From: Escherichia coli
Lineage (GTDB): Bacteria; Pseudomonadota; Gammaproteobacteria; Enterobacterales; Enterobacteriaceae
Length of the DNA stretch: 64,000 nt
Reading direction: 5' to 3' (one strand)
Assembly (NCBI RefSeq): GCF_003790525.1
Contig: NZ_CP033635.1
The position numbers and the translations under genes are program-made. Below the pieces are notes generated by a model. It saw only the letters and a program-made list of their open reading frames with translations. It had not been told where the DNA came from and ran no database searches. This document shows positions 1 through 17,303 of this stretch, in pieces. Within the stretch, counting starts at the first letter, position 1. The number at the start of each line of letters is the position of its first letter.

Positions 1-62
1 GTCAGCGTTGAAAACGTACCGGTAAGCGCAGCTACCGCAGTGAGTGCCAGTAACTTTTTCAC
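1..62 (-). CDS. 5' end of a secreted-protein gene (signal peptide MKKLLALTAVAALTGTFSTL...), continues beyond the window start
   Basis: Reverse-strand reading from a GTG at 62..60 gives a typical signal peptide; a GGAGAGG Shine-Dalgarno lies just upstream (revcomp of ~66-72). Product unknown. Confidence 0.35.
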   Translation of the reverse strand, partial: MKKLLALTAVAALTGTFSTL

Positions 63-377
63 AATCCACCTCTCCTGATGTTTCCTTCAGACATATGAAT
101 TTGTCCAATTTTAAGACGGATTTCTCATTGGTAAAATGAATTGTACAGATCGTATCGATCGACAAAGTCGATCGTTAAGCAGAAAAAAGATTTATCGTCA
201 GCGAAGATTTGTTTATGGAAATGACTGAAAAAACGGGTTAAAAAACAGACTGTTCTGTCCATGTGAAACGGGAAGTGACGGGATAAGACGTTATGTGAGG
301 ATTGTTACGGGAAATGCTGTTTTACGTTGTTAAAATGTAACTCCGCAATGAAACTATCCCCTGTGGAGGTCCTGTAA

Positions 378-731
378 ATGAACAAAGCACTCTCTTCCAT
401 TCTGCTCATCTTCGGTATCTGTGCATCATCACTGGCCGCTGAAAAAAACAGAACCGTCAGTTTTCCACGATGTGAAGTACAGGAAGCATCAGCTGTTGCA
501 GCCAGCGTCAAACGGGACTATCTCCAGAAACAGGTATTTCAGTGGAAAGATGATCAGGAAATTCTCGGTCAGCAGCGTCCCGTTGTCTGGGTGAATCTTC
601 GTGAGCCGGTAAATAAAGGTGATAATGTCATCACAGTGCATCTCACTGCCCGTGGAAAGAAAGCAGATATTCAGTATCGTGTGCGCGTTGACTGTAAGAA
701 CGGAAGTGCTACCTGGCAACGCCAGGGATGA
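378..731 (+). CDS. YebF-like small secreted protein (island paralog)
   Basis: 117-aa ORF with signal peptide and conserved motifs (SVKRDY, DCK) resembling E. coli YebF from memory; the neighbourhood is not the K-12 yebF locus. Confidence 0.7.
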   Translation: MNKALSSILLIFGICASSLAAEKNRTVSFPRCEVQEASAVAASVKRDYLQKQVFQWKDDQEILGQQRPVVWVNLREPVNKGDNVITVHLTARGKKADIQYRVRVDCKNGSATWQRQG

Positions 732-777
732 ACGGGTGAAGTTGAATACAGAGCCCGAACGAACGGGCTCTCCATAC

Positions 778-1350
778 TCATCGTATATAACTGAATGCGG
801 TGATGACGTGTTTCACCCCCGCCACGCGACTGGCGATATCAGCAGCAGCCTGTCCTTCCTTCTCTGTAACTCTCCCCATAAGAAAGACTTCACCATTCTC
901 CGTCAGTACCTTTACATCTGACAGTTTCACCCTGCTGCTCTTCAGTAACTGTGCCCGGATTTTTGTGGTCAGCCACGCATCAGTAGCTGTTTTATCAGCC
1001 CGAAGTGGTTTTCCCGTCCTTATTTCATTCCATACCTGCACAGTCCCCTCAACACCATCTGCAATCTGACGGGCTTTTTCACCTGCACTACGGTCTGGTG
1101 CCTGCCCTGTCAGCAGTACAGTGCCCTGGTATGCTGTGACGATGATTCGCGCATCCCCCCTGAGTTGTGAGTCCTTCGACAGCGCACGGCTGACCCTTGC
1201 TTCCAGAATTTCATCATCAATCTGCGTTCCCGCACTTCGGGGGTCCACTGACACTTTAGTACCCACAGCAGCCGTACCGACCAGCGCAGCGGCAACACAA
1301 CCCTGTAACAGCAACAGAGTCGAAAGAAAAGGCAGAAACCAGCGTTGCAT
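778..1350 (-). CDS. DolP/YraP-like BON-domain outer-membrane lipoprotein (island paralog)
   Basis: Lipobox LLLQGC followed by two BON-like repeats; strong resemblance to DolP (YraP). Start placed at the internal ATG (MQRWFLPF...) rather than the upstream ORF-track Met. Confidence 0.7.
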   Translation of the reverse strand: MQRWFLPFLSTLLLLQGCVAAALVGTAAVGTKVSVDPRSAGTQIDDEILEARVSRALSKDSQLRGDARIIVTAYQGTVLLTGQAPDRSAGEKARQIADGVEGTVQVWNEIRTGKPLRADKTATDAWLTTKIRAQLLKSSRVKLSDVKVLTENGEVFLMGRVTEKEGQAAADIASRVAGVKHVITAFSYIR

Positions 1351-1673
1351 GGCAGAATCCTCCACGGTCTGATATCCGGAATTTCGCAGTATGACGGCAG
1401 GAATCAGCCATCACAGATACCACAAGCTTCAGAGAGTAACGAAAACGTTAAAGGAAACGGAAGTGCCTGAATGTAAAGAACGGGGAACCACACAGGGTAT
1501 GGACAAACATAATAACAATAACAGGATGAAAATATTGAATAAAAAATAAAAACCGAGACATCATCATTTGCAGTAATAGCCACCTCCTTACCGAAAAGTG
1601 TGAGTTGCCGGACATTTTTTAAACGCATGATAAGGTCTGATGATACAGTCACCCTGCAACCAGGAGGTACATC

Positions 1674-1967
1674 ATGCGTATACGTGTTTTTGGTTACCGG
1701 CACTGCCCTTCAGTCCATCGCATCATGCATCACGCAACGCGAATCCCCGATGAAATGGAACCGGATGTTGTGTTTATTGATGTCGCGAAGCACAGTGTGA
1801 CGCTGCGGGATATGGCTGACCGTGCAGGCTGCCCGGTGGATAACTTCCCGTGTGTGTTTGTTGATGATGTCTATCTGGAGCCCCTCCACCAGAACCGGGC
1901 AAACCGCACTTTACATACTGCTGAATATTTATTACCGGATATGGACAATCGCTTTCATTCGGGATAA
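1674..1967 (+). CDS. hypothetical protein, possibly glutaredoxin-like fold
   Basis: 97-aa ORF with an N-terminal beta-strand plus CPxx motif (MRIRVFGYRHCPSV) reminiscent of glutaredoxin/NrdH, but without a canonical CxxC; weak call. Confidence 0.3.
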   Translation: MRIRVFGYRHCPSVHRIMHHATRIPDEMEPDVVFIDVAKHSVTLRDMADRAGCPVDNFPCVFVDDVYLEPLHQNRANRTLHTAEYLLPDMDNRFHSG

Positions 1968-2091
1968 AAAATACTGCGCGTTCCTGGTTTATTTTGCGTT
2001 GCTGTCATGACGTGTTTGCCTTCATTGCCGGGATCGCGCACTTTTTGTTATAACTCCCCGGAGGACACTGTCTGTAATCAGATGGAAACCT

Positions 2092-2526
2092 TTATCTCAG
2101 TGATGTCCTGGTTAATACAGAATACTGCCCCGGACCAAGTAACATAATGGCAATCCCCCCCATGAAATACAGCATTTCATTTTCAAGCCCCCACGCCCCT
2201 ACTTCAGTCAGTGTGAAAAACTTCCCTGTTCCGACCAGAAGCGTGGCAACAATCAGTGTCAGCGCATAAATCAGAGCAGCAGGTCTGGTAAATATCCCAA
2301 GAATGATAAGTACCGGAGCCACGATTTCACCAATATACACACCATAGGCAATAAATCCTGGCAAACCAGCATCCTGCAACATTGATATAATCCAGTTGAC
2401 ACCGTGCTCTATTTTGGCCACACCATGGAACAGCATCAATATACCAAATGTCAGTCTCAGCAACAGAAGACCTGTATCCGGGTAGTCTGTCAGTCTGGTA
2501 AAGAACATATTTATTCTTGCTGGCAT
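2092..2526 (-). CDS. DoxX-family inner membrane protein
   Basis: 144-aa hydrophobic ORF with the DoxX-like N-terminal pattern (LLLLRLTFGILMLFHG). Confidence 0.65.
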   Translation of the reverse strand: MPARINMFFTRLTDYPDTGLLLLRLTFGILMLFHGVAKIEHGVNWIISMLQDAGLPGFIAYGVYIGEIVAPVLIILGIFTRPAALIYALTLIVATLLVGTGKFFTLTEVGAWGLENEMLYFMGGIAIMLLGPGQYSVLTRTSLR

Positions 2527-3085
2527 AAAAAACCTCGTTAAACGATAACAGATAATGAAGAAACTATTATCGTTGAGTCGACACCATCAATTGACCAGAT
2601 ATTTCTGACATTCATAATCAAAAAATTTGACAAAACTGTAAACGTTCGCTTTTTATACCAACACAGAATCCACTCAGTCACACAACCTGTATGCGTCATT
2701 TCCTGCTGTTATTTAAAAAATTTCTCACGTAACAGACATTTCAAAAAAACACTAAAAAATACCAGAACAATTAAGATAATATTACGATCAAATAAGTAAA
2801 AGTCTTTTGTCTGTTATTTTTATTTTCTGTGATTACTGTCATTCTTTCACCACTTTAATTAACATCGCATAATAATCCGGGAGGTGGATAAGATATGAAA
2901 ATTAACTATCCTTTACTGGCGCTGGCGTTGAATTATTACCTGTAGAGCTCACTCCGGATGAGCAGAAAGAACCGATGGTGGCTCTTACTCCACTTTTATC
3001 CACTCCTTCACACAGCACTGTCAGTGCAGGTGCCTGAAAGATCTCGTTCCGTCACGGTAAAATGACGCTGGAAAATTCTTCACCA

Positions 3086-3285
3086 GAACTGCTCACTGTG
3101 TTAATTCGTGAACTGACCTGGGGGGAATGCGTGGTACCCTGCTGTACGGACTAATCGGAACCTGTCGGTTGAACGGTATCGATCCGGAAGCGTATCTGCG
3201 CCATATCCTGAACGTTCTACCGGAATGGCCTTCCTGCATGGTTGATGAACTCCTGCCATGGAATATGGTGCTCCCATTGGGGTAA
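3086..3285 (+). mobile_element. IS66-family transposase 3' remnant
   Basis: Translation ...GTLLYGLIGTCRLNGIDPEAYLRHILNVLPEWPSCMVDELLPWNMVLPLG* matches the conserved C-terminal end of IS66-family transposases; no intact upstream ORF. Confidence 0.6.
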
Positions 3286-3411
3286 GCGTCAATACGGCGT
3301 TCGCTTAACTTAACACTTACTTTCAAAGCCTGATATCTGTCCTACGCTTTTCCTCAATACCACATCGCCAGCAGGAAACAACCTAATGCCTGTGTTGGGG
3401 TCTGAATTACT

Positions 3412-3427
3412 AATGATAATCATTTGC
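3412..3427 (+). promoter_or_regulatory. putative Fur box upstream of sitA
   Basis: AATGATAATCATTTGC resembles the Fur consensus GATAATGATAATCATTATC; sit operons are known to be Fur-regulated. Confidence 0.5.
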
Positions 3428-3449
3428 ATTGTGTATAGCTTATGCTATA

Positions 3450-3471
3450 AAACATAGCCGTTGCTATGTTT
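3450..3471 (+). promoter_or_regulatory. putative MntR operator upstream of sitA
   Basis: Near-perfect palindrome AAACATAGC-cgtt-GCTATGTTT, as in MntR sites of mntH/sitA. Confidence 0.55.
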
Positions 3472-3503
3472 GTTCTAATTTTACTCACTATAGGTACTGA
3501 ATT

Positions 3504-4418
3504 ATGCACTCAATAAAAAAAGTAACCATGCTCCTGGGGTGCCTCGCCCTCACCTGCTCGATAGCATTTCAGGCGAGTGCAACTGAAAAATTCAAGGTCA
3601 TTACAACATTTACCATCATCGCAGATATGGCCAAAAACGTGGCTGGAGATGCTGCAGAAGTCTCATCCATAACCAGGCCCGGTGCAGAAATTCATGAGTA
3701 TCAGCCTACCCCTGGCGATATTAAACGTGCGCAGGGGGCACAACTGATTCTCGCCAACGGTATGAATCTGGAATTGTGGTTCCAGCGCTTTTACCAGCAT
3801 CTCAGTGGGGTTCCAGAAGTGATTGTCTCTTCGGGTGTGACGCCAGTAGGGATCACCGAAGGCCCCTACGAGGGAAAACCTAACCCTCATGCCTGGATGT
3901 CGCCAGATAATGCTTTGATTTACGTCGATAATATTCGTGATGCGTTGATAAAATACGATCCGGCAAATGCAAAAACATACCAACGTAATGCCGATACTTA
4001 TAAAGCCAAGATTACCCAAACCCTTGCCCCCCTGCGTAAGCAGATTGCTGAACTCCCTGAGAATAAAAGATGGATGGTCACCAGTGAAGGGGCTTTTTCT
4101 TATCTCGCACGCGATTTGGGGCTAAAAGAGCTTTATCTGTGGCCGATAAATGCCGATCAACAAGGAACACCCCAGCAGGTACGTAAAGTGGTTGATATAG
4201 TGAAGAAAAATAATATCCCAGCGGTATTTAGTGAGAGTACGGTTTCCGATAAACCAGCGCGTCAGGTTGCGCGTGAAACCGGCGCACACTACGGCGGTGT
4301 GCTCTATGTCGATTCCCTGAGCACAGAAAACGGCCCGGTACCTACGTATATCGACCTTCTGAAGGTTACTACCAGTACGCTGGTGCAGGGAATTAAAGCC
4401 GGGAAAAGGGAGAAGTAA
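3504..4418 (+). CDS. sitA: SitA, periplasmic Mn/Fe-binding protein of the SitABCD ABC transporter
   Basis: 304-aa ORF with signal peptide and metal-binding SBP cluster-9 features; matches SitA from memory. Confidence 0.85.
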   Translation: MHSIKKVTMLLGCLALTCSIAFQASATEKFKVITTFTIIADMAKNVAGDAAEVSSITRPGAEIHEYQPTPGDIKRAQGAQLILANGMNLELWFQRFYQHLSGVPEVIVSSGVTPVGITEGPYEGKPNPHAWMSPDNALIYVDNIRDALIKYDPANAKTYQRNADTYKAKITQTLAPLRKQIAELPENKRWMVTSEGAFSYLARDLGLKELYLWPINADQQGTPQQVRKVVDIVKKNNIPAVFSESTVSDKPARQVARETGAHYGGVLYVDSLSTENGPVPTYIDLLKVTTSTLVQGIKAGKREK

Positions 4419-4560
4419 TGATGCAATCTGCGGGTATTGTCGTTAATGGCGTTACTGTCACCTGGCGAAACGGGCAGAAAGCACTGCGCGATGCATCCTT
4501 CACAGTACCAGGCGGATCTATTGCCGCTCTGCTTGGGGTAAACGGTTCCGGTGAAATCGT
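4418..4560 (+). pseudogene. sitB: sitB remnant (ATPase truncated just after the Walker A region)
   Basis: ORF begins like SitB (GIVVNGVTVTWRNGQKALRDASFTVPGGSIAALLGVNGSG) then diverges into unrelated sequence; sitC and sitD are absent. Confidence 0.7.
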
Positions 4561-4900
4561 CTTGACACGTTTCTGGGCTCGTCATCAGCGGTTGTTGCGA
4601 ATGATCGCCGCCCTGCGATGGTTGATTTATTTTATTGCGCCCCGGCGTCTGCCTTGCCAGGTACCGGAGGCGGGCTCTGAAGGACTGAGTAGGGTGAGCG
4701 CGTCAGGCCGCGAAGTACTGACACGGGAGTTTGTGGCAGGCAGTGAAGTCCTGACCAGGGTAAGGGAGGCGCTGACGTGCAGGTCCTGACTGTCAGCCAG
4801 GCGCATGGTGACTGACTTTCTCAATAACCCGCTGTCAGGCGCTCAACGCCCGACAGCAGGCCATGGCCCGGTGTGCAAAGACCTGACGGCAGGTGTTGTG

Positions 4901-5221
4901 TCACCCGGAGAAGGTAAATCCCTCAAGAGGCAGCAGCTCAGCCAGTCGGTCCTCAGGCCACTCCGGCAGGCGCGTCAGTACGTCCGTCAGCCAGGCATGT
5001 GGCTCCAGACCATTACGCTTTGCTGTTTCCAGAAGACTCATTATCTGTGCCGCGCGTTTGCCGGCCATCAGCGAGCCTGCGAATAACCATGCCTTTCGCC
5101 CCAGCGTGACCGGGCGGATGGCTCGTTCGCAGATATTGTTGTCCGGTGGCACAGAGCCATCATCCAGAAAACGGCACAGCTCATCAGGTCGTTTCAGGAT
5201 ATAGCTGATAGCCTTATGCAA
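4901..5221 (-). mobile_element. IS66-family transposase C-terminal remnant
   Basis: 106-aa ORF (...ICERAIRPVTLGRKAWLFAGS...LETAKRNGLEPHAWLTDVLTRLPEW...) matches the IS66-family transposase C-terminus; the 5' part of the gene is missing. Confidence 0.7.
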
Positions 5222-5694
5222 TGGACTGTCTGGCGGACCGCCTGCTCCTGCTCTTGACGGTTTTTTGCCTTGTATATCAGGTTATAGACGAGAAGATTGT
5301 CGTCTTCGTGGTTTCCGTCAGGAAAAGAGAATGCTCAAAAGTGTATAGTAAGGCGGTCAAACGCATTCGCTGAAATAAGATGTGTCACTTCAGCTTTGCG
5401 TTAACACGACTATTTTTCATCACTCAAGCGGTAGTCCCGGTGACTCACACGTATACGAGTCACCGCTTCAGATTTGAGTATCCGAATTTAAATCAGGGAC
5501 ACAATGGAAGAAGCGAACACTTTCGCATCCTCTTCCTGCAATTCGCAGACTGTCACTCTGCGTCCAGTTCCCTCTTTCCTCAGCAGGTACCAACGCCAGG
5601 CTCCCGACAAAGGTTGACCTGAAACGACCAAATACACAGGAAACAAAATACTGTCAGACAGAACGAGGCGTGCTATACATCACGCCTCAATGCT

Positions 5695-6684
5695 TCAGTG
5701 GCTGATTTTTTTCAGCTGTTCTTCACTCAATCCCGTGATTTTCATGATGGTCTGAAGCCCCATTCCTTCAGCCAACATATTACGCGCCGTTTCCAGTTTG
5801 CCTTCCAGTTGTCCTTCGAGTCGCCCTTCGGCACGGCCTTCCATTCTGCCTTCCATTCTGCCTTCTAGCTTACCGCGCTCCATACCCTGGGCAATACCGC
5901 GCTCAAATCCCTTGACTTCCCCTTCCTGCTTCAGTTGTTCAGCCAGTGTCATTATGTTGCCCTCATGCTGTGGCAGCCGCTCCGCCAGCGTCTGCAAAAA
6001 CCTTACCGTCACATGTTCACTGCCGTTCAGCAGATAGTGGAACAGAGCCTTCGCCAGCTCTTCATTCAGTGAAGTCTGTATCAGCTGAACCAGCCTGTCC
6101 ATCTGCAGCATGATGTCGCGGCTGCGGCTGTGTTTCATCAGCAGCGTCAGTGCCCCCATTCGGCGGTGTTGCATTATCTCATCGTCATCCAGTACCGTCA
6201 CGTCCACCAGGTGGAACGGTCTGGTGTAGATTTTAGCAGCAAGTTCCGGATTTCTGAAACACTCCAGCCAGTTCATGCTGTACGGGTACGGGCTCCGCTC
6301 ACCGTGGTAGAATAACAGCGGGATCACCAGCGGCAGCTCATGGTGCTGTTCAAAGTGACGCTGCATCGCCGCCACCGCATATCTGAGCATCCTGAACGCC
6401 ATAAACGCGTTTTCCGTACTCTGGTGTTCCGCGAGGCAATAAATATACCCCTCCTCACCGCTGACGGTCTTCATGCTGAACAGCGCATCGCACGCATACT
6501 GTTTCAGATCCTGGTCCACAAAGGTACAGGGCTCCAGCCGCAGCGTCGACAGATCACACAACTGCCGGTATTCCGCCGGAAGATGCAGTTCAACAAAATC
6601 ACGGGCCACCTCTGCTGAGGCCATAAACGCCCTGAAGGCGGCATCATGCGGCGTGGGCGTATTTTTCTCTTTCCTGCTGCTCAC
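5695..6684 (-). CDS. Rpn-family recombination-promoting nuclease (YhgA-like putative transposase)
   Basis: 329-aa ORF with PDDEXK-like N-terminal region and the characteristic C-terminal EGRxEGR repeat tail of RpnA-E paralogs. Confidence 0.8.
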   Translation of the reverse strand: MSSRKEKNTPTPHDAAFRAFMASAEVARDFVELHLPAEYRQLCDLSTLRLEPCTFVDQDLKQYACDALFSMKTVSGEEGYIYCLAEHQSTENAFMAFRMLRYAVAAMQRHFEQHHELPLVIPLLFYHGERSPYPYSMNWLECFRNPELAAKIYTRPFHLVDVTVLDDDEIMQHRRMGALTLLMKHSRSRDIMLQMDRLVQLIQTSLNEELAKALFHYLLNGSEHVTVRFLQTLAERLPQHEGNIMTLAEQLKQEGEVKGFERGIAQGMERGKLEGRMEGRMEGRAEGRLEGQLEGKLETARNMLAEGMGLQTIMKITGLSEEQLKKISH

Positions 6685-6918
6685 TGTTTATCTCTTCTGA
6701 ACCAGGTAACATTAACAGAACATGTTTCAGGATATCCGCGCAGTGCGGAACATTACGGCTCACCACTGTGACGGCGGATCATCGCCACCCAGTATCCGAC
6801 AGACCCCTTACTTTGTTCGTAAACATCCTTCCTGCCCCCCTGAATCTCCAGACAACCAATATCACTTAAATAAGTGATAGTCTTAATACTAGTTTTTAGA
6901 CTAGTCATTGGAGAACAG

Positions 6919-7284
6919 ATGATTGATGTCTTAGGGCCGGAGAAACGCAGACGGCGTACCACACAGGAAAAGATCGCAATTGTTCAGCAGAGTTTTGAAC
7001 CGGGAATGACGGTCTCCCTTGTAGCCCGGCAACACGGTGTGGCAGCCAGCCAGCTATTTCTCTGGCGCAAGCAATACCAGGAGGGAAGTCTTACTGCTGT
7101 GGCCGCAGGAGAACAGGTCGTTCCTGCCTCTGAACTTGCTGCTGCCATGAAGCAGATTAAAGAACTCCAGCGCCTGCTCGGCAAAAAAACGATGGAAAAT
7201 GAACTCCTCAAAGAAGCCGTTGAATATGGACGGGCAAAAAAGTGGATAGCGCACGCGCCCTTATTGCCCGGGGATGGGGAGTAA
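6919..7284 (+). CDS. insC: IS2 transposase OrfA (InsC)
   Basis: [56 protein letters not shown]... is the IS2 OrfA sequence. Confidence 0.9.
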
Positions 7285-8147
7285 GCTTAGTCAGCCGTTG
7301 TCTCCGGGTGTCGCGTGCGCAGTTGCACGTCATTCTCAGACGAACCGATGACTGGATGGATGGCCGCCGCAGTCGTCACACTGATGATACGGATGTGCTT
7401 CTCCGTATACACCATGTTATCGGAGAGCTGCCCACGTATGGTTATCGTCGGGTATGGGCGCTGCTTCGCAGACAGGCAGAACTTGATGGTATGCCTGCGA
7501 TCAATGCCAAACGTGTTTACCGGATCATGCGCCAGAATGCGCTGTTGCTTGAGCGAAAACCTGCTGTACCGCCATCGAAACGGGCACATACAGGCAGAGT
7601 GGCTGTGAAAGAAAGTAATCAGCGATGGTGCTCTGACGGGTTCGAGTTCCGCTGTGATAACGGAGAAAAACTGCGAGTCACGTTCGCGCTGGACTGCTGT
7701 GACCGTGAGGCACTGCACTGGGCGGTCACTACGGGCGGCTTCAACAGTGAAACAGTACAGGACGTCATGCCAGGAGCGGTGGAACGCCGCTTCGGCAACG
7801 ATCTTCCGGCGTCTCCAGTAGAGTGGCTGACGGATAATGGTTCATGCTACCGGGCTAATGAAACACGGCAGTTTGCCCGGATGTTGGGGCTTGAACCGAA
7901 GAGCACGGCGGTGCGGAGTCCGGAGAGTAACGGCATAGCAGAGAGCTTCGTGAAAACGATAAAGCGTGACTACATCAGTATCATGCCTAAACCAGACGGG
8001 TTAACGGCAGCAAAGAACCTTGCAGAGGCGTTCGAGCATTATAACGAATGGCATCCGCATAGTGCACTGGGTTATCGCTCGCCACGGGAATATCTGCGGC
8101 AGCAGGCCAGTAATGGGTTAAGTGATAACAGGTGTCTGGAAATATAG
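7242..8147 (+). CDS. insD: IS2 transposase OrfB (InsD)
   Basis: 301-aa ORF with integrase-core catalytic region, overlapping orfA in the -1 frame as in IS3-family elements. Confidence 0.9.
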
Positions 8148-8199
8148 GGGCAAATCCACCTGAATCTGAGGCAGCACCTGGCACGGCTGGGACGGAAGT

Positions 8200-8441
8200 C
8201 GCTGTCGTTTTCAAAATCGGTGGAGCTGCATGACAAAGTCATCAGGCATTATCTGAACATAAAACACTATCAATAAGTTGGAGTCATTACCGTGTTCCCG
8301 ACAGACGACTCGGTGAAAAAAGTGGTGTGGCTGGCAATCCAGTCTGCGTCCCAGAAATGGACGATGCCGTTGAAGGACTGGCGAATGGCAATGAGCCGCT
8401 TTATTATCGAGTTCGGTGACCGCCTGGACGGTCACTTCTGA
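8200..8441 (+). mobile_element. IS256-family transposase 3' remnant
   Basis: Translation FPTDDSVKKVVWLAIQSASQKWTMPLKDWRMAMSRFIIEFGDRLDGHF* matches the conserved C-terminal tail of IS256-family transposases; only this tail is present, immediately right of IS2. Confidence 0.5.
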
Positions 8442-8473
8442 GAAAAGGCATTTACACAGAATCCTAAACAGGC

Positions 8474-9211
8474 TCATGTACAGCGCTGTACCGGGCAATG
8501 GGTAATACCGGTCACAACCGGTAACCCCAGAGACAATGCAACTGTTTTTAACGCAATATACTGGCCGGATGTATCACCCCGGGCAGCCTGAAAACACCTT
8601 TCCACCCGGCATTGTCCGTCAGCACTTATCACCCGCCATGTCTGTTGCAATAAATCCACCCGTTGCGAACATTCTTCATCAACCGTGGCACTGACCCGTG
8701 GATGGCAAATGCTCGTCTGGCTGAGCAGCAACAGGCATCGCATTGTTGCTCCTCCATGTTGTTCCCGCAACCAGCGTAATACCACCGGTGGTGCTGGACT
8801 GGCCGTGTGATTACGTTCAGTAATACGCTCGTGCACCTGTCGGTAAAAGGAAGTACAGAATGCATGAATCTGTTGTCCGTTGATGTTTCCTTCTGCCGAA
8901 TGGAGTGTGAAGTGGACGGCCAGCAGACGCGGCCAGTGATCCACCGCCTGCTGAATAAAACGCCGGATTTCCACCGGCTCTGAAAGTACGGTTTCGGTTA
9001 TTTGCACGATTTGATCCCCTTGAATGTTGCTGAACCGGTGTCGGTACGCAGGAAAGCACGCCGAGACCGGTACGATGCCTGTTACAGCGAAGAACGAGGA
9101 ATGACAGACGGGGGCAGCAGGTCGCCAGCACCAGGGACAGGGCTGATTTCCACAATACCAACGCTGGTATTTTGCACATTGCCAGCGTACCGGCATTACA
9201 ACACGTTTCAT
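8474..9211 (-). CDS. YagK/YfjJ-like (inovirus Gp2-like) protein, third tandem copy; possibly degenerate
   Basis: Central region (RLLAVHFTLH...NGQQIHAFCTSFYRQV...) parallels the two upstream paralogs; an internal Met at 9211 would overlap the alpA-like stop (ATGA). The N-terminal region is Cys/Trp-rich and atypical, so a frameshifted pseudogene is possible. Confidence 0.35.
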   Translation of the reverse strand: MKRVVMPVRWQCAKYQRWYCGNQPCPWCWRPAAPVCHSSFFAVTGIVPVSACFPAYRHRFSNIQGDQIVQITETVLSEPVEIRRFIQQAVDHWPRLLAVHFTLHSAEGNINGQQIHAFCTSFYRQVHERITERNHTASPAPPVVLRWLREQHGGATMRCLLLLSQTSICHPRVSATVDEECSQRVDLLQQTWRVISADGQCRVERCFQAARGDTSGQYIALKTVALSLGLPVVTGITHCPVQRCT

Positions 9212-9444
9212 GCTGCTGCCCCTCGTGATGCCTCGATTCGTTGCTGCATCCACTGCTCCACTTCACTTTTGTACCAGCGGCTGCTGCGCCCCAGTTTGAT
9301 GGGTTTAGGGAAATGGCCTTCACTGATCAGCTTGTAAAACCATTTGTCGGTCATACCAGTGAAGCTGGTGATGTAGTTCATGTCGATCAGGGGATCGTCG
9401 GCACGCAGCAATACGCTGTCGTGACCTGTCATTGAGGTCAACAT
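9208..9444 (-). CDS. AlpA-family prophage regulatory protein
   Basis: Contains ...FTGMTDKWFYKLISEGHFPKPIKLGRSSRWYKSEVEQWMQQRIEASRG, the typical AlpA-like helix-turn-helix of integrative islands. The true start is probably the internal Met at 9381. Confidence 0.7.
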   Translation of the reverse strand: MLTSMTGHDSVLLRADDPLIDMNYITSFTGMTDKWFYKLISEGHFPKPIKLGRSSRWYKSEVEQWMQQRIEASRGAAA

Positions 9445-9512
9445 GGTCAGAATGTCCTCTGTGAGATTTATGAATGTTGGGCAAATGCGGGTGAATCTGC
9501 TGAGCTGAGCTT

Positions 9513-10115
9513 TCAGAGCTGGCCTGCTACGGGATACCAGGGATTACCGGCGAGGTAACGGGCTTCCGGATCGCGCACACCACGACGATCGCGGGCGAAA
9601 TCACTGAACGCCCATATCAGCTCTTTGAGTCTCTCTTCGCAGTCCGGTGAACAACTGTCCAGCACCACATCCCGGGTTATCTGTTTCTGGTACGGTGCCG
9701 CTTCACCCGGTGAGGCGAAGCCCAGCACGTTGCTCCAGGCATCCAGAATCAGCCGATCCAGTTCAGGGCCGTCGAAATACTCCTGCCTGACGCACAGCAC
9801 CACGTGGTATTCCGGCTTTTCAGGATGACGTGTCAGGAGCCAGCAGAGGTCACGTCCGGGGGTTGCATTCATCAGGTCACTGACGGTTTCAATAAAGGCC
9901 ATACCGAACCAGGTCCTGCGGCTGCTGAAGGTATTATCGGGTTCCCACGGCAGACGAAGCAGGATACGTCGTATCCGGGAGCCGGACTGCTCACGCAGCG
10001 CACGGTCAAGAACGCCAATAACTTTGTTCTGATACGAGGGCCAGAAGGGTGCCATGCTGTCGTCGAAATAAGAGAAAGTATTCACAGGATATGCTCCGTT
10101 ATGCGCAGCCCACAA
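9513..10115 (-). CDS. YagK/YfjJ-family (inovirus Gp2-like) protein
   Basis: 200-aa ORF paralogous to 10418..11149; the only in-frame start before an upstream stop is a TTG. Confidence 0.5.
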   Translation of the reverse strand: MWAAHNGAYPVNTFSYFDDSMAPFWPSYQNKVIGVLDRALREQSGSRIRRILLRLPWEPDNTFSSRRTWFGMAFIETVSDLMNATPGRDLCWLLTRHPEKPEYHVVLCVRQEYFDGPELDRLILDAWSNVLGFASPGEAAPYQKQITRDVVLDSCSPDCEERLKELIWAFSDFARDRRGVRDPEARYLAGNPWYPVAGQL

Positions 10116-10417
10116 CGCGTCCTGCCCGGGGATGGATGGGCTGACGGGTTACAGGCTGCGGATGAGGTTGATGGAACAGGTGAAGAACCGACGCTGAGCG
10201 GGAATATCAGGGAAGAACATTCAGGGTGAATGAACTCCGTTGACTTCGGTTCACATCATTAAGCAGGGCGGTAAGGTTTTACCGACAGATTGTTTCCGGG
10301 TGCGGAAGCAGATACCGCTGCTGACTTCATGACGGGTTATCAGAATACGGGATAAGGGCATTGGCTGACTCTCTTACCGTGGCATAAGTTCAGGTACCGG
10401 ATACCGTTTTACCGACC

Positions 10418-11149
10418 TCACCTGCCATCCAGCAAACGCCCCGGCCCACGGCTGCAACCATAATTACGCTGACCGGAACCATTATGCTGCTTCGTTTTAT
10501 TTTTCACGAGATAACTGGCTCTGTTCCTGGCTTTCTGCATCGCTGCCACATCACCACGCTTGATCCAGAGAACAGCGGCTTCACCCGGCTTTTTTTCTGA
10601 AGCCTTCCTGGTATCAGAACATCCACCCGACAAAGGCGTGTCATCGGAAGAAGGGCGAGCATCAGACGATGCTGGTTTACGAAAAGGCTTCCACCTGGAA
10701 AAATGGACCAGGCCATCGCCTTGCCAGGGCTCAAGATGCAGAGCGCTGCACCATGCCTCCTGGATCATCGCCGCCAGCGAAGACGGTTCGCTGAAATCCC
10801 CGAGCGAGCACCAGGTATCTTTGTTGAGCAGCAATATCACGTGATAATGTTTCCTGTTTTCTTCCTCTCCGAACTCCCGGCACCAGAAATAACGCAGGCT
10901 GGTTGCATGCACACGCTGACTGGCACGTCGCTTATGCTGCTGGTAAGCCTGGATTTTGGCTTTCAGGGATTCGAAAAAACGAGAAATCACCGCTGAATCC
11001 GGATCGGGATCCATGATGGTGACAGGCATATACTCAGGGAAACGTAAATCCACCCGGATTAACGAGACGGCACGGTGCTGCGACAGGGCACTGTCGAGAA
11101 GGCTGTCAAAACGGGATAACCAGTAAGCATTGTGTATTGGTTGATTCAT
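10418..11149 (-). CDS. YagK/YfjJ-family (inovirus Gp2-like) protein
   Basis: 243-aa ORF with N-terminal ...AVSLIRVDLRFPEYM... motif recalled from CP4-57 YfjJ / CP4-6 YagK. Confidence 0.55.
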   Translation of the reverse strand: MNQPIHNAYWLSRFDSLLDSALSQHRAVSLIRVDLRFPEYMPVTIMDPDPDSAVISRFFESLKAKIQAYQQHKRRASQRVHATSLRYFWCREFGEEENRKHYHVILLLNKDTWCSLGDFSEPSSLAAMIQEAWCSALHLEPWQGDGLVHFSRWKPFRKPASSDARPSSDDTPLSGGCSDTRKASEKKPGEAAVLWIKRGDVAAMQKARNRASYLVKNKTKQHNGSGQRNYGCSRGPGRLLDGR

Positions 11150-11209
11150 GATGAGAGATCTCCGTTGATTTGGATTGACTTCACATCATTAATCACCGCG
11201 GTAAAACTT

Positions 11210-12720
11210 TACGGCATCATGTCATTAAGCAATGCTACAACTCTCTGATTAAGAGTGATTGAAACGGAACAAACCATCCCGGAACGAAAAGATAATCCTG
11301 CACACAGCAGCAAAACACGCAACAACAGCATGAATGGATTTAAAAACGACATGGACGACGAGAAAAGCCTGAAGGGAAAAGGATCCACAGAACATTCGAA
11401 CAAAACACCAGAAACGCAACCAGAACGCTTCCTGGCAATGCAAATCAACAACAACACCAAAACCTACAGCTTAATCACACAACTCAATCACGAATGCGAA
11501 TGACACGTTTAAAACCTGTTTACAGATAACGTCGTAACAAGATCATCCCCATCAGAATCGATTTTCTTATCTTGAGTATGTTACTTTTCAACATACCTAA
11601 ACGATTAACCACCGATAACGTAAATCTCATCTGAATCAAAACACCAAAACCAATCATCACGTTTTCGACAGAAGAAAAACACCACATCATGACAAAAAGA
11701 ATGACCTTACACGGAAAAGAAAAACGTCAGGAATCGTTAATGCATACCTCAATCTGATTGTTATCAAAACATCCAGAAAGTCGTTTAACAGAATCGTCGT
11801 AAGCACATCGAAAAGAACGTCAGATCACCTCAGGAAAGTTCGGGTTGATTTAGCGTAAAGATACTTTTCTCAGCTTAACGTCGAAACACAAACCAAAAAC
11901 CACAAACAACCAAAGCTCAGGAAAGGTTAAACGTCACATCAGTAAAATCGAATAGCAGATTGATTGCTTAAACAGGAAGGATTGTTTTACAGCAGCATTA
12001 AACTGATTTAGTTAACGTAAAATCAGAACTGACAGGTTTACTAACTTGGATGTGTATCAGTTCAAAAATGTGTACAGCAATGCGTAATGAAACACATTTA
12101 AAGGAGATTAATGGGAAAAGTGTGTAAATGCGTAAACATGCACTAATGAATCACTGAAGGAATACATACAAAACGACTTAATGAAAACATAAAAGGACCT
12201 AATGGAAAAGGTGTATATAATACCATATCCGACATTCTCAACATCTTAAGACATCCATGCAGACTGAATGTTGGTTTCAGTTTTTCACGGTAAGCATGAA
12301 TCTTTTCTGTTCAAAAGCAGAGCAGATTTACTCTGGAATTATTTTTCTTACTCCGTATTCTGTACAGCAAAAACTTGTGCTAACTTTACAGCAAACCATC
12401 ATAATCAGCGTCTGTAGTCCCATCGCTTTACCCCATGAAAGTGAATCCATATGATGCGAGAGAGATAAGTCATCGTATCCGGTAAACACTGCTAACCATA
12501 ACATAAGATCATTCAGTCAGTTTTATCTCTGAACTGACGATTATGGCATGCTCATTTATATGGCTCACAGAGGAGTGTTATTATCTGTAAGCTTTAATCA
12601 TCAAATCACATGACCATACCAAACTGGCGCTATATCAGCTCATTTGACACCCCTTCCCTTTAGATTTCTTTATGTGTTTTTTGTCGATAATTAAAATGTA
12701 ATATGAATTTAATATTTTTA
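11210..12720 (+). other. ~1.5 kb non-coding, strand-asymmetric A-rich tract
   Basis: No ORF of 60 aa or more between 11503 and 12257 in any frame; hand counts on sampled 60-nt blocks give roughly 38-45% A versus 12-23% T on the + strand. Confidence 0.6.
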
Positions 12721-12722
12721 CA

Positions 12723-13946
12723 TCATAAACACCATTTAAAACCATTATCCTGAACATCATACAACAATATATTTTTACTAAAGCATGAATTGTATATTTC
12801 TATTAATTCAGGAAAATTATCAGGATTCACCTTTAAATTCACCTGAATGTTACGCCTAATTTCACCCAGCAGTTTTTCATGCGTGAATTTTATTATTTCT
12901 TTATCATAATCTATAAATTCACACATGTTTTTTATGAATTCAAACCCTTTTCCTGTATACAGTTTGATGAATGCCACAAGAGCAAACATTTCAAGATGCA
13001 GCCATAATGCCACGTGAGTTTTTCGCAAAGTATAAAAAATTGAATTCACCTCTTTTTTACTTATTGCTCTTTTGTACTGTGAGTGTGCCAGATTCAGTAG
13101 TGGCAATTCTCTCTCGATAAATGAAAGTGAAAAAGGCGGGTAAATTGATGTCGGAAATATTTTAGGTCTTATGATATTTTCTATTTCCACCATAAATCTA
13201 TCCATAGAAAGAAAATCATTTTCTTTTTTTATTCTGGTATAGAGACCGCCTTTATTTCTTACTGCGACTTTTTTTCGTGCTACCCCCCCCAACACTTCCT
13301 CTAATTGTTTATTTATCTTCGTATCATTAAATACAACCATTCTTCTTATCATCCTGGGAAGGATGATAATATCAGAGCTTGAATCACTTGAACGGTAATT
13401 ATTATTGATCCATGCAACTTCAAGTTGAAGTATCGGAACATTAAATTCTCTGGGGTTAATAACTCTCTGATATTGTTTTTTGTATGCGTTTTTATTAAGA
13501 TATTCTCTGCTGTAGAGAAACTTATAGCAATATAATCTGACAATATCCTTTATGTAAGATTTAAATGAGTCACCTGTAACAGATATATTTTTTCTGCTCA
13601 GTAACTCCTGTGTATTGAGCCATTCCCGTGACCGGAGTACTCCCTTATGAAGACTTTTTCTTACTTGCATTGAACTGCGCAATTGATGTAATATTTTTGC
13701 GTCCTCAACAATTCTCTTTCCCGTTTGATTTCTTGCAGCATCTATTACTCTGTCAAATATCTCCCGGTCCAGACTTTTGTCATATTTACTGATTATACGA
13801 CAAATATTCCTGACCCGACGGTTCTCTTTATTTCGTTTCCATAACTGATAATGATCATCACATAACCTCAGGGCATTTGCCTCATCAAATTCTGAAACAG
13901 GATTGCTGCATTTTTTATTCCGACAGATACCTTTGTTTTTAGCCAT
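12723..13946 (-). CDS. hypothetical protein, 407 aa, very low GC, N-terminal Cys/His cluster
   Basis: Long uninterrupted ORF in a region of roughly 30% GC (hand count on sampled blocks); K/N/I-rich; N-terminus GICRNKKCSNP...LCDDHY suggests a zinc-ribbon-like motif. No family recognised. Confidence 0.6.
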   Translation of the reverse strand: MAKNKGICRNKKCSNPVSEFDEANALRLCDDHYQLWKRNKENRRVRNICRIISKYDKSLDREIFDRVIDAARNQTGKRIVEDAKILHQLRSSMQVRKSLHKGVLRSREWLNTQELLSRKNISVTGDSFKSYIKDIVRLYCYKFLYSREYLNKNAYKKQYQRVINPREFNVPILQLEVAWINNNYRSSDSSSDIIILPRMIRRMVVFNDTKINKQLEEVLGGVARKKVAVRNKGGLYTRIKKENDFLSMDRFMVEIENIIRPKIFPTSIYPPFSLSFIERELPLLNLAHSQYKRAISKKEVNSIFYTLRKTHVALWLHLEMFALVAFIKLYTGKGFEFIKNMCEFIDYDKEIIKFTHEKLLGEIRRNIQVNLKVNPDNFPELIEIYNSCFSKNILLYDVQDNGFKWCL

Positions 13947-14000
13947 ACTCTTCTTCCCGTCAATGGAAAATTTTTCACGTCCATATTACCTGACTGAGAG

Positions 14001-14021
14001 ACCGGATTAATGTGATCCGGT
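14001..14021 (+). promoter_or_regulatory. inverted repeat in the divergent intergenic region
   Basis: ACCGGAT-taatgtg-ATCCGGT perfect 7-bp arms, between the divergent 407-aa ORF and the GTPase gene. Confidence 0.3.
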
Positions 14022-14046
14022 TCAGTGAAATCAACAGGATACCGGT

Positions 14047-14931
14047 ATGTCATTCAGCCATTCTTCCCTTTCCGCACACGTAAAATCACATCTGACCTTT
14101 CTTCCTGAAGAAATACGCCAGAAAATCCTTGAATATCTTCACAGCGTCATTCAGTACGAACCCGTGATTGGCATTATGGGTAAATCCGGTGCCGGAAAAA
14201 GCAGCCTGTGCAATGCCATTTTTCAGTCCCGTGTCTGCGCCACGCATCCACTGAACGGCTGCACCCGTCAGGCTCATCGTCTTACCTTTCAGCCTGGTGA
14301 ACGCAGAATGACGCTCGTCGATCTGCCCGGCACTGGCGAAACACCACAGCATGATCAGGAATACCGGGCACTTTACCGTCAGTTACTGCCCGAACTGGAT
14401 CTGATTATCTGGATCCTGCGTGCTGATGAACGTGCGTATGCTGCCGACATCGCCATGCATCAGTTTTTACTGAATGAAGGTGCCGATCCCTCGCGTTTTC
14501 TGTTTGTTCTCAGCCATGCTGATCGCATCCACCCGGCTGAAGAATGGAACAGCCAGAGCAACACGCCATCCCGTCAGCAGGAACTCTCACTGGCAACAGT
14601 AACAGCCCGGGTGGCAACCCTGTTCCCTTCATCATTTCCGGTACTCCCCATAGCTGCCCCTGCAGGCTGGAATCTTCCGGCATTTGTGTCACTGATGATC
14701 CACGCCCTGCCACCACAGGCAACCAGCACGGTTTATTCGCATATCCGGAATGAAAAGCGCACTGCGCAGGATCAGCAACACGCACAGCAGGCTTTTGGTG
14801 ACGCCATCGGCCAGAGCTTTGACGCGGCCATTGCCCGGTTCAGCTTTCCGGCCTGGATGCTGCAGCTTCTGCGTAAAGCCCGTGATCGCATTATCCGCCT
14901 GCTGGTCACACTGTGGGATCGCCTGTTCTGA
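14047..14931 (+). CDS. YeeP/YfjP/YkfA-family GTPase (50S ribosome-binding GTPase domain)
   Basis: 294-aa ORF with P-loop GIMGKSGAGKSS and overall resemblance to K-12 prophage GTPases YfjP/YeeP. Confidence 0.85.
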   Translation: MSFSHSSLSAHVKSHLTFLPEEIRQKILEYLHSVIQYEPVIGIMGKSGAGKSSLCNAIFQSRVCATHPLNGCTRQAHRLTFQPGERRMTLVDLPGTGETPQHDQEYRALYRQLLPELDLIIWILRADERAYAADIAMHQFLLNEGADPSRFLFVLSHADRIHPAEEWNSQSNTPSRQQELSLATVTARVATLFPSSFPVLPIAAPAGWNLPAFVSLMIHALPPQATSTVYSHIRNEKRTAQDQQHAQQAFGDAIGQSFDAAIARFSFPAWMLQLLRKARDRIIRLLVTLWDRLF

Positions 14932-15116
14932 ATTTCCCCGCTTTTTGACCGGCACAGACGATGACCAGGGAACGCATTTCCGGCGGCTTTACCACAATGC
15001 TGAAGGGCTTTTGGTAAACCTCATTCATTTCATCCATCAGGCAGCGTCTTCTCCGGGAGATGCGGCTTTTTCATTGATTACGTCAGTCAGTCTTAACCAC
15101 TGATAAGGAGCAAAGT

Positions 15117-17299: not shown

Positions 17300-17303
17300 G
17301 TCA

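What the first reader, a model, noticed from the sequence alone, without database searches (positions are those of the whole stretch)
378..2526. Island-borne paralogs of core envelope genes (YebF-like, DolP-like, DoxX, glutaredoxin-like)
The left end of the window encodes divergent second copies of envelope or secreted proteins rather than phage genes: a YebF-like protein, a DolP/YraP-like BON lipoprotein and a DoxX membrane protein. This suggests a mosaic island part derived from another enterobacterial chromosome, and a possible envelope-stress or secretion accessory set.
Basis: partly seen in the sequence, partly recalled or inferred. Interest (0 to 1): 0.4.

Follow-up and report, generated by a model that had tools for sequence, protein, structure and literature searches.

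The report
Island-borne extra yebF and dolP copies
A rare E. coli genomic island carries diverged extra copies of two cell-envelope genes (yebF, dolP) beside a DoxX membrane protein and a degenerate glutaredoxin-like gene; this is ordinary mosaic island cargo with no identifiable donor species, not a new system.

Summary
The four ORFs are real and lie where stated: YebF-like 378-731(+), DolP-like 778-1350(-), Grx-like 1674-1967(+), DoxX 2092-2526(-). They sit in accessory DNA. The block is whole in only 16 of 5,426 complete E. coli genomes, mostly from poultry. It is flanked by IS and sit remnants, and core genes resume near 20,665.

YebF-like (51-52% identity) and DolP-like (62%) are intact paralogs that keep their export signals and key residues. 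DoxX is only about 30% identical to E. coli YqjF and YphA, so it is not a second copy of a core gene. The Grx-like gene is a near-orphan Grx1 derivative with CPSV in place of CPYC, and this allele has a frameshifted tail.

No donor species was found. The closest relatives of all four proteins (their 90% clusters) are E. coli only, and island DolP branches outside the Enterobacteriaceae plus Yersiniaceae core clade. The genes alternate strands, and at least the Grx-like and YebF-like genes recur without the others in other contexts. The block is therefore a collage with an envelope and redox theme, not an operon. Interest is low.

The parts
1..62 (-). 5' end (signal peptide) of a beta-barrel outer-membrane protein gene, cut by the window edge.
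   Evidence: In CM2 the same sequence is the start of a 249-aa 'outer membrane protein'. Its Pfam hits are OMP_b-brl 5.1e-19 and OmpW.
378..731 (+). YebF-like secreted protein of 117 aa. It has a signal peptide ending SLA|AE, and the Cys32/Cys106 pair is conserved.
   Evidence: Family hits. It is 51-52% identical to core YebF and matches PDB 2lqv at 1.3e-27. Cysteine positions are. dN/dS is 0.06 against the CFSAN061770 copy, from only 6 differences.
750..771 (.). GC-rich 8-bp hairpin (AGAGCCCG-aacgaa-CGGGCUCU) between the convergent yebF-like and dolP-like stop codons. It is probably a shared transcript-end structure, but it has no T-run.
   Evidence: Sequence. Fold energy is -19 kcal/mol with z = -3.3. 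The terminator scan did not call it.
778..1350 (-). DolP-like dual-BON outer-membrane lipoprotein of 190 aa with the lipobox LLLQGC. The phospholipid-binding residues corresponding to W127 and L137 are conserved.
   Evidence: Family hits. It is 62% identical to core DolP and matches PDB 7a2d at 1.2e-62. Key residues were mapped against PMC7806268. dN/dS is 0.16-0.22.
1351..1673 (.). AT-rich (42% GC) divergent intergenic region between the dolP-like and Grx-like genes; presumed promoters.
   Evidence: GC content. No sigma-70-like or sigma-E-like consensus was found here.
1674..1967 (+). Grx1-derived thioredoxin-fold gene with a degenerate active site (CPSV). This 97-aa allele has a 1-nt deletion near 1885 that replaces the conserved 83-aa C-terminus (…PPEPGKPHFTYC).
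   Evidence: Only about 4 real relatives exist among 1.84 billion representative proteins.
2092..2526 (-). DoxX-family inner-membrane protein of 144 aa.
   Evidence: Pfam DoxX 2.1e-19. It is about 30% identical to K-12 YqjF and YphA. The nearest copy outside E. coli is 71.6% identical, on a Phytobacter plasmid beside a flavodoxin-family gene.
3093..3326 (.). IS66-family transposase remnant that bounds the block on the right.
   Evidence: Annotation of the 99.9%-identical CM2 stretch and the ORFs.
3504..4564 (+). Intact sitA followed by a truncated sitB: a remnant of the sitABCD Mn/Fe transporter.
   Evidence: The full sitABCD follows the block in CFSAN061770.
1..20665 (.). Accessory mosaic island. 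Core E. coli chromosome (glnP, glnQ, ybiO and onward) starts near 20,665.
   Evidence: CM2 matches only window 1-8475.

Best explanation
Window 378-2526 is a collage of four separately transcribed cargo genes inside a mosaic, IS-scarred E. coli genomic island.

Two genes are intact, selectively maintained paralogs of core envelope genes, and they most likely work as the core proteins do:
- The DolP-like lipoprotein would be exported by Sec and Lol to the inner leaflet of the outer membrane. There its second BON domain would bind anionic phospholipid and support outer-membrane and BAM integrity.
- The YebF-like protein would be Sec-exported, form its disulfide bond, and be released through porins.

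The other two genes are not second copies of E. coli core genes:
- The DoxX protein belongs to a subfamily seen elsewhere in Enterobacteriaceae next to a flavodoxin-like reductase. Its presumed role is quinone-linked redox chemistry.
- The Grx-like gene is a near-orphan, catalytically degenerate Grx1 derivative. In this window its tail is frameshifted.

The set has an envelope and redox theme but is not one machine. It gives the host at most redundant or niche-specific envelope and redox functions.

Shown here: gene identities, island context, coexistence with the core copies, retention of key residues, absence of a donor. Inferred: the biochemical roles and any fitness benefit.
For: - **Identities and thresholds:**
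- **Divergence from core copies:**
- **Accessory distribution:** the block is whole in 16 of 5,426 genomes, while core yebF and dolP are universal. Both coexist in CM2.
- **Island features:** an integrase and IS remnants. GC3 is 43-51% in the block genes against 61-63% in window core genes.
- **Functional integrity:** the lipobox, W127 and L137, and the YebF cysteine pair are retained. dN/dS is 0.06-0.22. The exact proteins occur on 453 to more than 999 contigs, all named E. coli.
- **No operon:** the genes alternate strands.
- **Independent distribution:** Grx-like relatives (58-68% identical) sit next to katG-like and sodC-like genes or next to a TonB-dependent receptor. A related DolP (68%) sits on an ICE. 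A related DoxX (72%) sits beside a flavodoxin-family gene. A YebF-like remnant occurs alone in about 890 genomes.
Against: - No expression or phenotype data exist.
- The dN/dS values rest on only 6-18 substitutions per comparison.
- The N-terminal half of the DolP lipid-binding helix has changed (G120D, E121K, S123A, N124T, T126A), so binding could differ.
- The Grx-like allele here is frameshifted. Other strains carry a frameshifted DoxX, a YebF-like gene without its signal peptide, and an IS-split outer-membrane protein gene. That pattern suggests weak selection on parts of the block.
Confidence: 0.7

Rival explanations
1. The genes form a coordinated envelope and oxidative-stress 'hardening' module. 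On this reading the outer-membrane protein, YebF-like, DolP-like, Grx-like, DoxX and neighbouring Sit Mn/Fe uptake genes are selected together in gut- or poultry-associated E. coli.
For: - The same order (YebF, DolP, Grx, DoxX, sitA) recurs in CM2, CFSAN061770 and LH50-c.
- In LH50-c and Ch1 the block abuts a deacetylase, GT4, CptA and LpxM cluster that is about 90% identical to the one on pO157-type plasmids.
- A Grx-like relative lies next to catalase-peroxidase and Cu/Zn superoxide dismutase genes.
- Most hosts are chicken isolates.
Against: - The genes alternate strands and share no detected regulatory motif beyond chance level.
- Individual members are lost or broken in different strains.
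- The Grx-like and YebF-like genes occur without the other members elsewhere.
- The segment 782-1965 (dolP plus grx) is simply absent from related YebF-bearing islands.
Confidence: 0.15
2. The block is decaying hitch-hiker DNA with no current function. It would be kept only by linkage to the island and by the short time since acquisition.
For: - It is flanked by IS66 and solute-binding-protein remnants and by a truncated sitB.
- The Grx-like gene is frameshifted here.
- DoxX is frameshifted in CFSAN061770, and the outer-membrane protein gene there is split by an IS21 element.
- The YebF-like gene is truncated in Ch1, LH50-c and about 890 other genomes.
Against: - The yebF-like and dolP-like genes here are full length and keep their signals and key residues.
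- Synonymous changes outnumber non-synonymous ones.
- Identical proteins are seen on hundreds of contigs.
Confidence: 0.12
3. One reading: the block is a recently transferred piece of another enterobacterial species' chromosome, that is, that species' own yebF and dolP.
For: - Family membership is clear, and GC3 differs from E. coli core genes.
- DoxX has a 72% relative in Phytobacter and 54% relatives in Klebsiella.
Against: - No DolP relative above 69% and no YebF or Grx relative outside E. coli was found in the 5.8 billion-protein search, and for the Grx-like protein also none in the 1.84 billion-representative search.
- One genome per species (100,044 species) gave only hits of 54% or less, although that scan is limited by its peptide patterns.
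- Island DolP is as far from Klebsiella and Salmonella (62%) as from Yersinia (61%), and it branches basal to all of them.
- In core genomes yebF and dolP are not neighbours.
Confidence: 0.05
4. The YebF-like protein, possibly together with the DolP-like protein, is an exclusion or immunity factor that serves the mobile element. For example it could occupy porins or act like the YebF-fold colicin M immunity protein, protecting against colicins or phages.
For: - NCBI's family name 'YebF_not_Cmi' reflects the structural kinship of YebF with the colicin M immunity protein.
- K-12 YebF leaves the cell through OmpF and OmpC (background knowledge, not checked here).
- Diverged DolP paralogs recur on mobile elements, including an ICE.
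Against: - The protein passes the 'not Cmi' equivalog cut-off.
- It has a cleavable signal peptide rather than a membrane anchor.
- It does not match solved Cmi chains at E<=0.01.
- No toxin gene is adjacent.
- None of the four proteins hits PADLOC.
Confidence: 0.04

Closest known systems
E. coli DolP (YraP), a dual-BON outer-membrane lipoprotein (PDB 7A2D; PMC7806268, PMC8081527)
   Same: It has the same length and the same lipobox (LLLQGC) and two BON domains, and it passes the NCBIfam equivalog cut-off. W127, L137, T130, K131, R133 and Q135 of the phospholipid-binding helix are conserved.
   Different: It is only 62% identical and branches outside the Enterobacteriaceae plus Yersiniaceae core DolP clade. 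It lies in an island instead of the diaA-dolP-yraQ context. The start of the lipid-binding helix has changed (G120D, E121K, S123A, N124T, T126A). No sigma-E-like promoter was found.
E. coli YebF, a small secreted protein (PDB 2LQV)
   Same: It has a Pfam YebF domain, the same size, a cleavable signal peptide and a conserved cysteine pair.
   Different: It is 51-52% identical. It is not next to yebG and purT but convergent with a dolP paralog. Its close relatives are found only in E. coli accessory DNA, and many of them are truncated.
E. coli glutaredoxin 1 (GrxA; PDB 1GRX)
   Same: GrxA is the best sequence-profile match and the best structural match. The beta-alpha-beta-alpha-beta core and the cis-Pro position (FPCVF against VPQIF) are retained.
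   Different: Identity is 29% and the score is far below the family cut-off. The active site is CPSV instead of CPYC. The GG glutathione-binding motif and the C-terminal helix are missing. The ancestral form ends in a Pro-rich tail with a terminal Cys, and this allele is frameshifted.
DoxX family (PF07681), including E. coli YqjF and YphA
   Same: It has a Pfam DoxX domain well above threshold and the size of a small multi-pass membrane protein.
   Different: It is about 30% identical to YqjF and YphA. Its closest non-E. coli relative (72%) is in a DoxX plus flavodoxin-family pair on a Phytobacter plasmid; that partner gene is absent here.
ICE-borne DolP paralogs of E. coli (for example P0017, beside a TraI_2 relaxase and an integrase)
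   Same: This is also a full-length DolP copy carried by a mobile element in addition to the core gene. It is found in 26 of 5,426 complete genomes.
   Different: It is only 68% identical to the window's DolP-like protein and forms a separate lineage. It has no YebF, Grx or DoxX neighbours.

Membership tests
YebF family (Pfam PF13995; NCBIfam NF041240 YebF_not_Cmi) | Profile score above the curated cut-off. | tested here: met
   Pfam scored 93.5 bits against 27. NF041240 scored 115.2 against 110. The older model NF010224 scored 120.5 against 147, which is below its cut-off.
YebF family | Cleavable Sec signal peptide and the conserved disulfide cysteine pair. | tested here: met
   The N-terminus reads MNKALSSILLIFGICASSLA|AE. 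C32 and C106 align with C35 and C108 of K-12 YebF. The signal peptide was judged by eye, not with a predictor.
YebF family | Release into the medium through OmpF/OmpC. | not testable with these tools
   This needs a secretion assay.
DolP (NCBIfam NF008247 equivalog) | Profile score above the equivalog cut-off, with two BON domains. | tested here: met
   The score was 279.4 bits against 184. Pfam found two BON stretches. PDB 7a2d matched at 1.2e-62.
DolP | Lipoprotein signal (lipobox) with outer-membrane sorting. | tested here: met
   The lipobox LLLQG-C is identical to that of K-12, and the +2 residue is Val, not Asp.
DolP | The BON2 alpha-1 anionic-phospholipid determinants W127 and L137. | tested here: met
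   Both are conserved, as are T130, K131, R133 and Q135. G120, E121, S123, N124, T126 and S134 have changed (residues from PMC7806268). Actual binding was not tested.
DolP | Core-genome ortholog in the diaA-dolP-yraQ context under sigma-E control. | tested here: not met
   The gene lies in an island. The true ortholog is present elsewhere in CM2. No sigma-E-like consensus lies upstream (a weak test). It is therefore a paralog, not the ortholog.
Glutaredoxin (GrxA family, NF008401 / TIGR02183) | Profile score above the cut-off. | tested here: not met
   The scores were 32.2 bits against 84 and 26.5 against 106.5.
Glutaredoxin | CPYC (or CGFS) active site and the glutathione-binding GG motif. 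| tested here: not met
   The active site is CPSV and the GG motif is replaced by EP.
Glutaredoxin / thioredoxin fold | A beta-alpha-beta-alpha-beta-beta-alpha fold. | tested here: inconclusive
   The AlphaFold2 model has pLDDT 68. It shows beta-alpha-beta-alpha-beta and then a disordered tail. Its best PDB match is 1grx (E=1.9e-4, TM 0.57).
DoxX (Pfam PF07681) | Profile score above the gathering threshold. | tested here: met
   The score was 70.4 bits against 23.6.
Second copy of an E. coli core DoxX gene (yqjF or yphA) | Close similarity to the host's own gene. | tested here: not met
   Identity is 31% and 30% over partial alignments.
Genomic island | Patchy distribution, atypical composition, mobility genes, and insertion into a conserved backbone. 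| tested here: met
   The block is whole in 16 of 5,426 genomes. GC is 47% against 52.9%. A tyrosine integrase lies at the island edge in CM2 and CFSAN061770, at different chromosomal sites. IS remnants are present. The core resumes at about 20,665. No tRNA lies in the window.

The most novel reading that the evidence does not exclude
E. coli mobile elements may carry their own deep-branching lineages of DolP and YebF. This island type is seen in about 19 complete genomes, and a separate ICE type of DolP in 26. On this reading the copies are not redundant. They would be element-serving envelope modifiers: they could buffer outer-membrane or BAM stress caused by the element's surface and transfer machinery, or they could occupy porins to exclude colicins, phages or rival elements.
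Probability: 0.07. Interest if true: 0.55.

Novelty: new member of a known kind. Interest (0 to 1): 0.2.

Why it matters
The practical point is annotation. RefSeq names these genes 'yebF' and 'dolP' exactly like the core genes. They are in fact 51-62% identical paralogs on a rare island, so pan-genome or essentiality analyses could confuse them with the core copies.

Biologically the block is a modest example of mobile DNA carrying extra copies of envelope-maintenance genes. DolP matters for outer-membrane integrity, BAM function and virulence. If the island or ICE copies were shown to complement or modify core DolP function, they would be natural variants for dissecting its lipid-binding helix.

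Otherwise this is ordinary mosaic island cargo.

Tried and rejected
- **Donor search.** The genome-contig scan (one genome per species) gave only Pasteurellaceae and more distant hits at 54% or less. That scan depends on exact 8-residue peptide patterns, so it is weak negative evidence. The 5.8 billion-protein searches found no relative above 69% outside the E. coli clusters. The exhaustive phmmer search for the Grx-like protein found about 4 true relatives.
- **Plasmid or phage origin.** There are no real plasmid or phage copies. The 'plasmid' hits are mislabelled chromosome pieces that carry core dolP or yebF.
- **A sigma-E promoter upstream of dolP-like.** No match to GGAACTT-N15-17-TCAAA was found. 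The sigma-70 scan was at chance level.
- **Structured RNAs.** None were found.
- **Shared regulatory repeats.** Only short, chance-level matches were found.
- **Anti-phage defence.** None of the four proteins hits PADLOC.
- **Literature.** No paper combines these genes or describes island copies of yebF or dolP.
- **An error of my own, corrected.** I first took the window to be strain CM2 throughout. One search showed that CM2 matches only window 1-8475. The annotation, including a second YebF pseudogene, belongs to CM2 and not to this window.
Full report
**What is there**

Window 378-2526 holds four ORFs on alternating strands.

- **YebF-like, 378-731(+), 117 aa.** It matches Pfam YebF at 7.9e-27 and passes the NCBIfam 'YebF_not_Cmi' equivalog cut-off, 115.2 bits against 110. 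It matches the solved YebF structure 2lqv at 1.3e-27.
- **DolP-like, 778-1350(-), 190 aa.** The ATG at 1350 has a GGAGGA Shine-Dalgarno sequence. It passes the DolP equivalog cut-off, 279.4 bits against 184, with two BON stretches. It matches the solved YraP/DolP structure 7a2d at 1.2e-62.
- **Grx-like, 1674-1967(+), 97 aa.** It has no Pfam hit. It gives a significant but sub-threshold match to the GrxA family, 32.2 bits against 84, E=8.8e-8.
- **DoxX, 2092-2526(-), 144 aa.** It is a clear Pfam DoxX protein.

A GC-rich 8-bp hairpin at 750-771 lies between the convergent yebF-like and dolP-like stop codons (-19 kcal/mol, z = -3.3). It has no T-run, and the terminator scan did not call it.

**How diverged the copies are**

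- YebF-like is 51% identical to K-12 YebF.
- DolP-like is 62% identical to K-12 DolP.
- DoxX is only about 30% identical to the two K-12 DoxX proteins, YqjF and YphA.
- The Grx-like protein is 29% identical to GrxA over its first 65 residues.

'Divergent second copy of a core gene' therefore fits yebF and dolP. It fits the Grx-like gene loosely and does not fit DoxX.

**Island context**

- The first 3 kb is found whole in only 16 of 5,426 complete E. coli genomes, mostly poultry isolates, and always on chromosomes.
- Strain CM2 matches window 1-8475 at 99.9% but not beyond. No complete genome contains the whole window arrangement.
- In CM2 the block lies about 6 kb from a tyrosine integrase that follows lptG. 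There it is preceded by an EcsC-family gene, a hypothetical gene and a beta-barrel outer-membrane protein gene whose first 62 bases are window 1-62. It is followed by an IS66 remnant, sitA and a truncated sitB.
- In CFSAN061770 the same series starts with an integrase next to ulaF and continues into a full sitABCD.
- In the window the accessory DNA ends near 20,665. After that, glnP, glnQ, ybiO and further core genes match many E. coli genomes at 100%.
- Block GC is 47% against 52.9% for the core part. GC3 is 43-51% in the block genes against 61-63% in glnP, glnQ and ybiO.
- The block is absent from plasmid and phage collections. The apparent plasmid hits are mislabelled chromosome fragments that carry the core genes.

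Core yebF and dolP are present at 95% identity or more in 5,425 of 5,426 genomes, at 10,852 places. CM2 carries the block and also has dolP in the rsmI-lpoA-yraN-diaA-dolP-yraQ context and yebF in the purT-yebG-yebF-yebE context. These are 62% and 52% identical to the island copies. The island genes are therefore extra copies, not the organism's only ones. The window's own source genome could not be checked, because it is not in the collection.

**Origin**

No donor was found.

- Among 5.8 billion proteins, the nearest relatives of DolP-like outside its own 99% clusters are 67-69% identical E. coli proteins. After those come the core DolPs of all Enterobacteriaceae, and of Yersinia and Serratia, at 60-65%.
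- One of the 69% relatives, P0017, lies on an integrative conjugative element next to a TraI_2 relaxase and an integrase. Genes of that type occur in 26 of 5,426 complete genomes.
- In a neighbour-joining tree the window's DolP branches outside both the Enterobacteriaceae plus Yersiniaceae core clade and the ICE group. It is 61% identical to K-12, 62% to Klebsiella and Salmonella, 61% to Yersinia ruckeri and 54% to Haemophilus ducreyi.
- YebF-like has only six related clusters, all from E. coli where named.
- The Grx-like protein has 14 related clusters in the indexed search, all E. coli, and about four real relatives among 1.84 billion representatives in an exhaustive phmmer search.
- All named members of the four 90% clusters are E. 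coli. The exact proteins occur on 453 to more than 999 contigs.
- A scan of one genome per species found nothing closer than 54%. That scan needs exact 8-residue peptides, so it is weak evidence.

The idea of a piece of another enterobacterial chromosome is therefore not supported. Either the source is an unsampled deep lineage, or these copies have evolved fast on mobile elements.

**Functional integrity**

- **DolP-like.** It keeps the K-12 lipobox (LLLQGC, with Val at +2). The eLife structure paper identifies W127 and L137 as most critical for phospholipid binding and septal localisation, and both are retained. T130, K131, R133 and Q135 are also retained. The N-terminal part of the helix has changed: G120D, E121K, S123A, N124T, T126A and S134A.
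- **YebF-like.** It keeps a cleavable signal peptide and the cysteine pair.
- **Selection.** Between strains, synonymous changes outnumber non-synonymous ones. dN/dS is 0.16-0.22 for dolP-like and 0.06 for yebF-like. The counts are small, at 6-18 differences per comparison.
- **Decay elsewhere.** In CFSAN061770, DoxX is frameshifted and the outer-membrane protein gene is split by an IS21 element. In Ch1 and LH50-c, the YebF-like gene has lost its signal peptide.

**The Grx-like gene**

- Relatives at 57-68% identity are all 83 aa long and end in a conserved …EPLPPxPGxPxYTxC.
- CFSAN061770 has this form. The window allele lacks one T near 1885, which replaces the last 12 residues with 26 unrelated ones.
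- Both alleles are common: 868 contigs against 677 plus 247.
- An AlphaFold2 model of the 83-aa form (pLDDT 68) shows beta-alpha-beta-alpha-beta followed by a disordered tail. Its best PDB match is E. coli glutaredoxin 1, 1grx, at E=1.9e-4 and TM 0.57.
- The active site is CPSV rather than CPYC, and the GG glutathione-binding motif is lost.
- It is best described as a degenerate Grx1 derivative of unknown activity.

**Is it one system?**

Probably not.

- The four genes alternate strands.
- No shared promoter or operator stood out.
- No structured RNA is present.
- None of the four proteins hits anti-phage defence models.
- The genes also travel apart. Grx-like relatives sit next to catalase-peroxidase and Cu/Zn-SOD genes or next to a TonB-dependent receptor and TraU remnants, and only window 1567-1928 is shared with them.
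- The DoxX relative in Phytobacter is paired with a flavodoxin-family gene.
- About 890 genomes carry only a truncated YebF-like remnant, in an island next to ynjA. There the sequence jumps from window 781 to the homolog of window 1966, so the dolP and grx genes are missing.

There is still a thematic association. In LH50-c and Ch1 the block directly follows a TPR, lpxM, cptA, GT4-glycosyltransferase and polysaccharide-deacetylase cluster. That deacetylase is about 90% identical to one found on hundreds of E. coli and Shigella virulence plasmids. On an enterohaemolysin plasmid the order is the same: deacetylase, GT4, cptA. From memory this is the pO157 ecf operon, and a related shf(SfpgdA)-…-msbB2 locus is described in PMC7355660. 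The island family thus tends to collect envelope-remodelling and redox or metal genes, but by accretion.

**Verdict**

- The most likely mechanism is that each product acts as its family does. The DolP-like protein would be an outer-membrane lipoprotein that binds anionic phospholipid. The YebF-like protein would be a Sec-exported protein released through porins. DoxX would be a membrane redox protein.
- Any benefit would be redundant or niche-specific.
- This is a new member of known kinds and of low interest.
- The most novel reading still open is that mobile elements keep their own DolP and YebF lineages for their own benefit. It has low probability.

Noticed in passing
L001:17717-18373 (CM2, about 2.3 kb left of window position 1; outside the window): The EcsC-family gene at the left of the block matches the PADLOC phage-defence candidate PDC-S29 at E=9.5e-86. 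It could be a single-gene defence candidate travelling with the block.
   Followed up: no
window 1880-1967: The Grx-like gene in this window lacks one T near 1885 compared with CFSAN061770 and with the conserved 83-aa reading frame of distant relatives. This gives a 97-aa product with an unrelated tail. Both alleles are common in E. coli assemblies.
   Followed up: yes
L014:8001-8576 (E. coli contig DBLGDT010000004.1): A second, separate lineage of extra DolP copies (68% identical to the window's, 71% to K-12's) sits on an integrative conjugative element, near a TraI_2 relaxase, a UvrD-like helicase and an integrase. Related genes occur in 26 of 5,426 complete genomes, with up to 3 copies per genome.
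   Followed up: partly
L021:2411-8287 (LH50-c) and L019:1-5287 (Ch1): In these strains the YebF-DolP-Grx-DoxX block directly follows a TPR, lpxM, cptA, GT4 and polysaccharide-deacetylase cluster. The deacetylase is about 90% identical to one on hundreds of E. coli and Shigella virulence plasmids, and the gene order matches an ehxA plasmid. From memory this is probably the pO157 ecf operon.
   Followed up: partly
L004:8001-8618 (SCU-115) and about 890 other E. coli genomes: A truncated YebF-family gene (84% DNA identity to window 241-781) lies in an integrase-bearing island next to ynjA. It has decayed PEtN-transferase, GT4 and deacetylase genes on one side and a cytochrome b562 gene on the other. 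The dolP and grx segment (window 782-1965) is absent there.
   Followed up: partly
window 3504-4564: sitA is intact, but sitB is cut after about 49 codons and is followed by IS66 and RelE remnants. The Mn/Fe transporter next to the block is therefore non-functional in this strain. CFSAN061770 has sitABC with a sitD pseudogene.
   Followed up: no
window 20500-20800: The island abuts the start of glnP. No glnH is seen between the island's DUF4942 gene and glnP, either here or in strain 23CRST013. The glnHPQ operon therefore appears to be interrupted or displaced by the island.
   Followed up: no
window 1517-1531 (+) and 2699-2713 (-): A 15-nt motif, AATAACAGGATGAAA against AATAACAGCAGGAAA (13 of 15 identical), lies about 145-185 nt upstream of both the Grx-like and the DoxX start codons, in the same orientation relative to each gene. 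It could be chance in AT-rich DNA.
   Followed up: no
L025:1391-6047 (metagenome-assembled contig, SRR33065492): The most distant Grx-like relative (57% identical, 83 aa) lies beside a 723-aa catalase-peroxidase gene and a Cu/Zn superoxide dismutase gene. This hints at an oxidative-stress association for this orphan family.
   Followed up: no
window 8475 onward: No complete E. coli genome in the collection contains the window's arrangement. CM2 matches 1-8475, LH50-c matches 241-20431 in pieces, and 23CRST013 matches 5900-45000. The island in the source strain is thus a distinct mosaic of known segments.
   Followed up: partly
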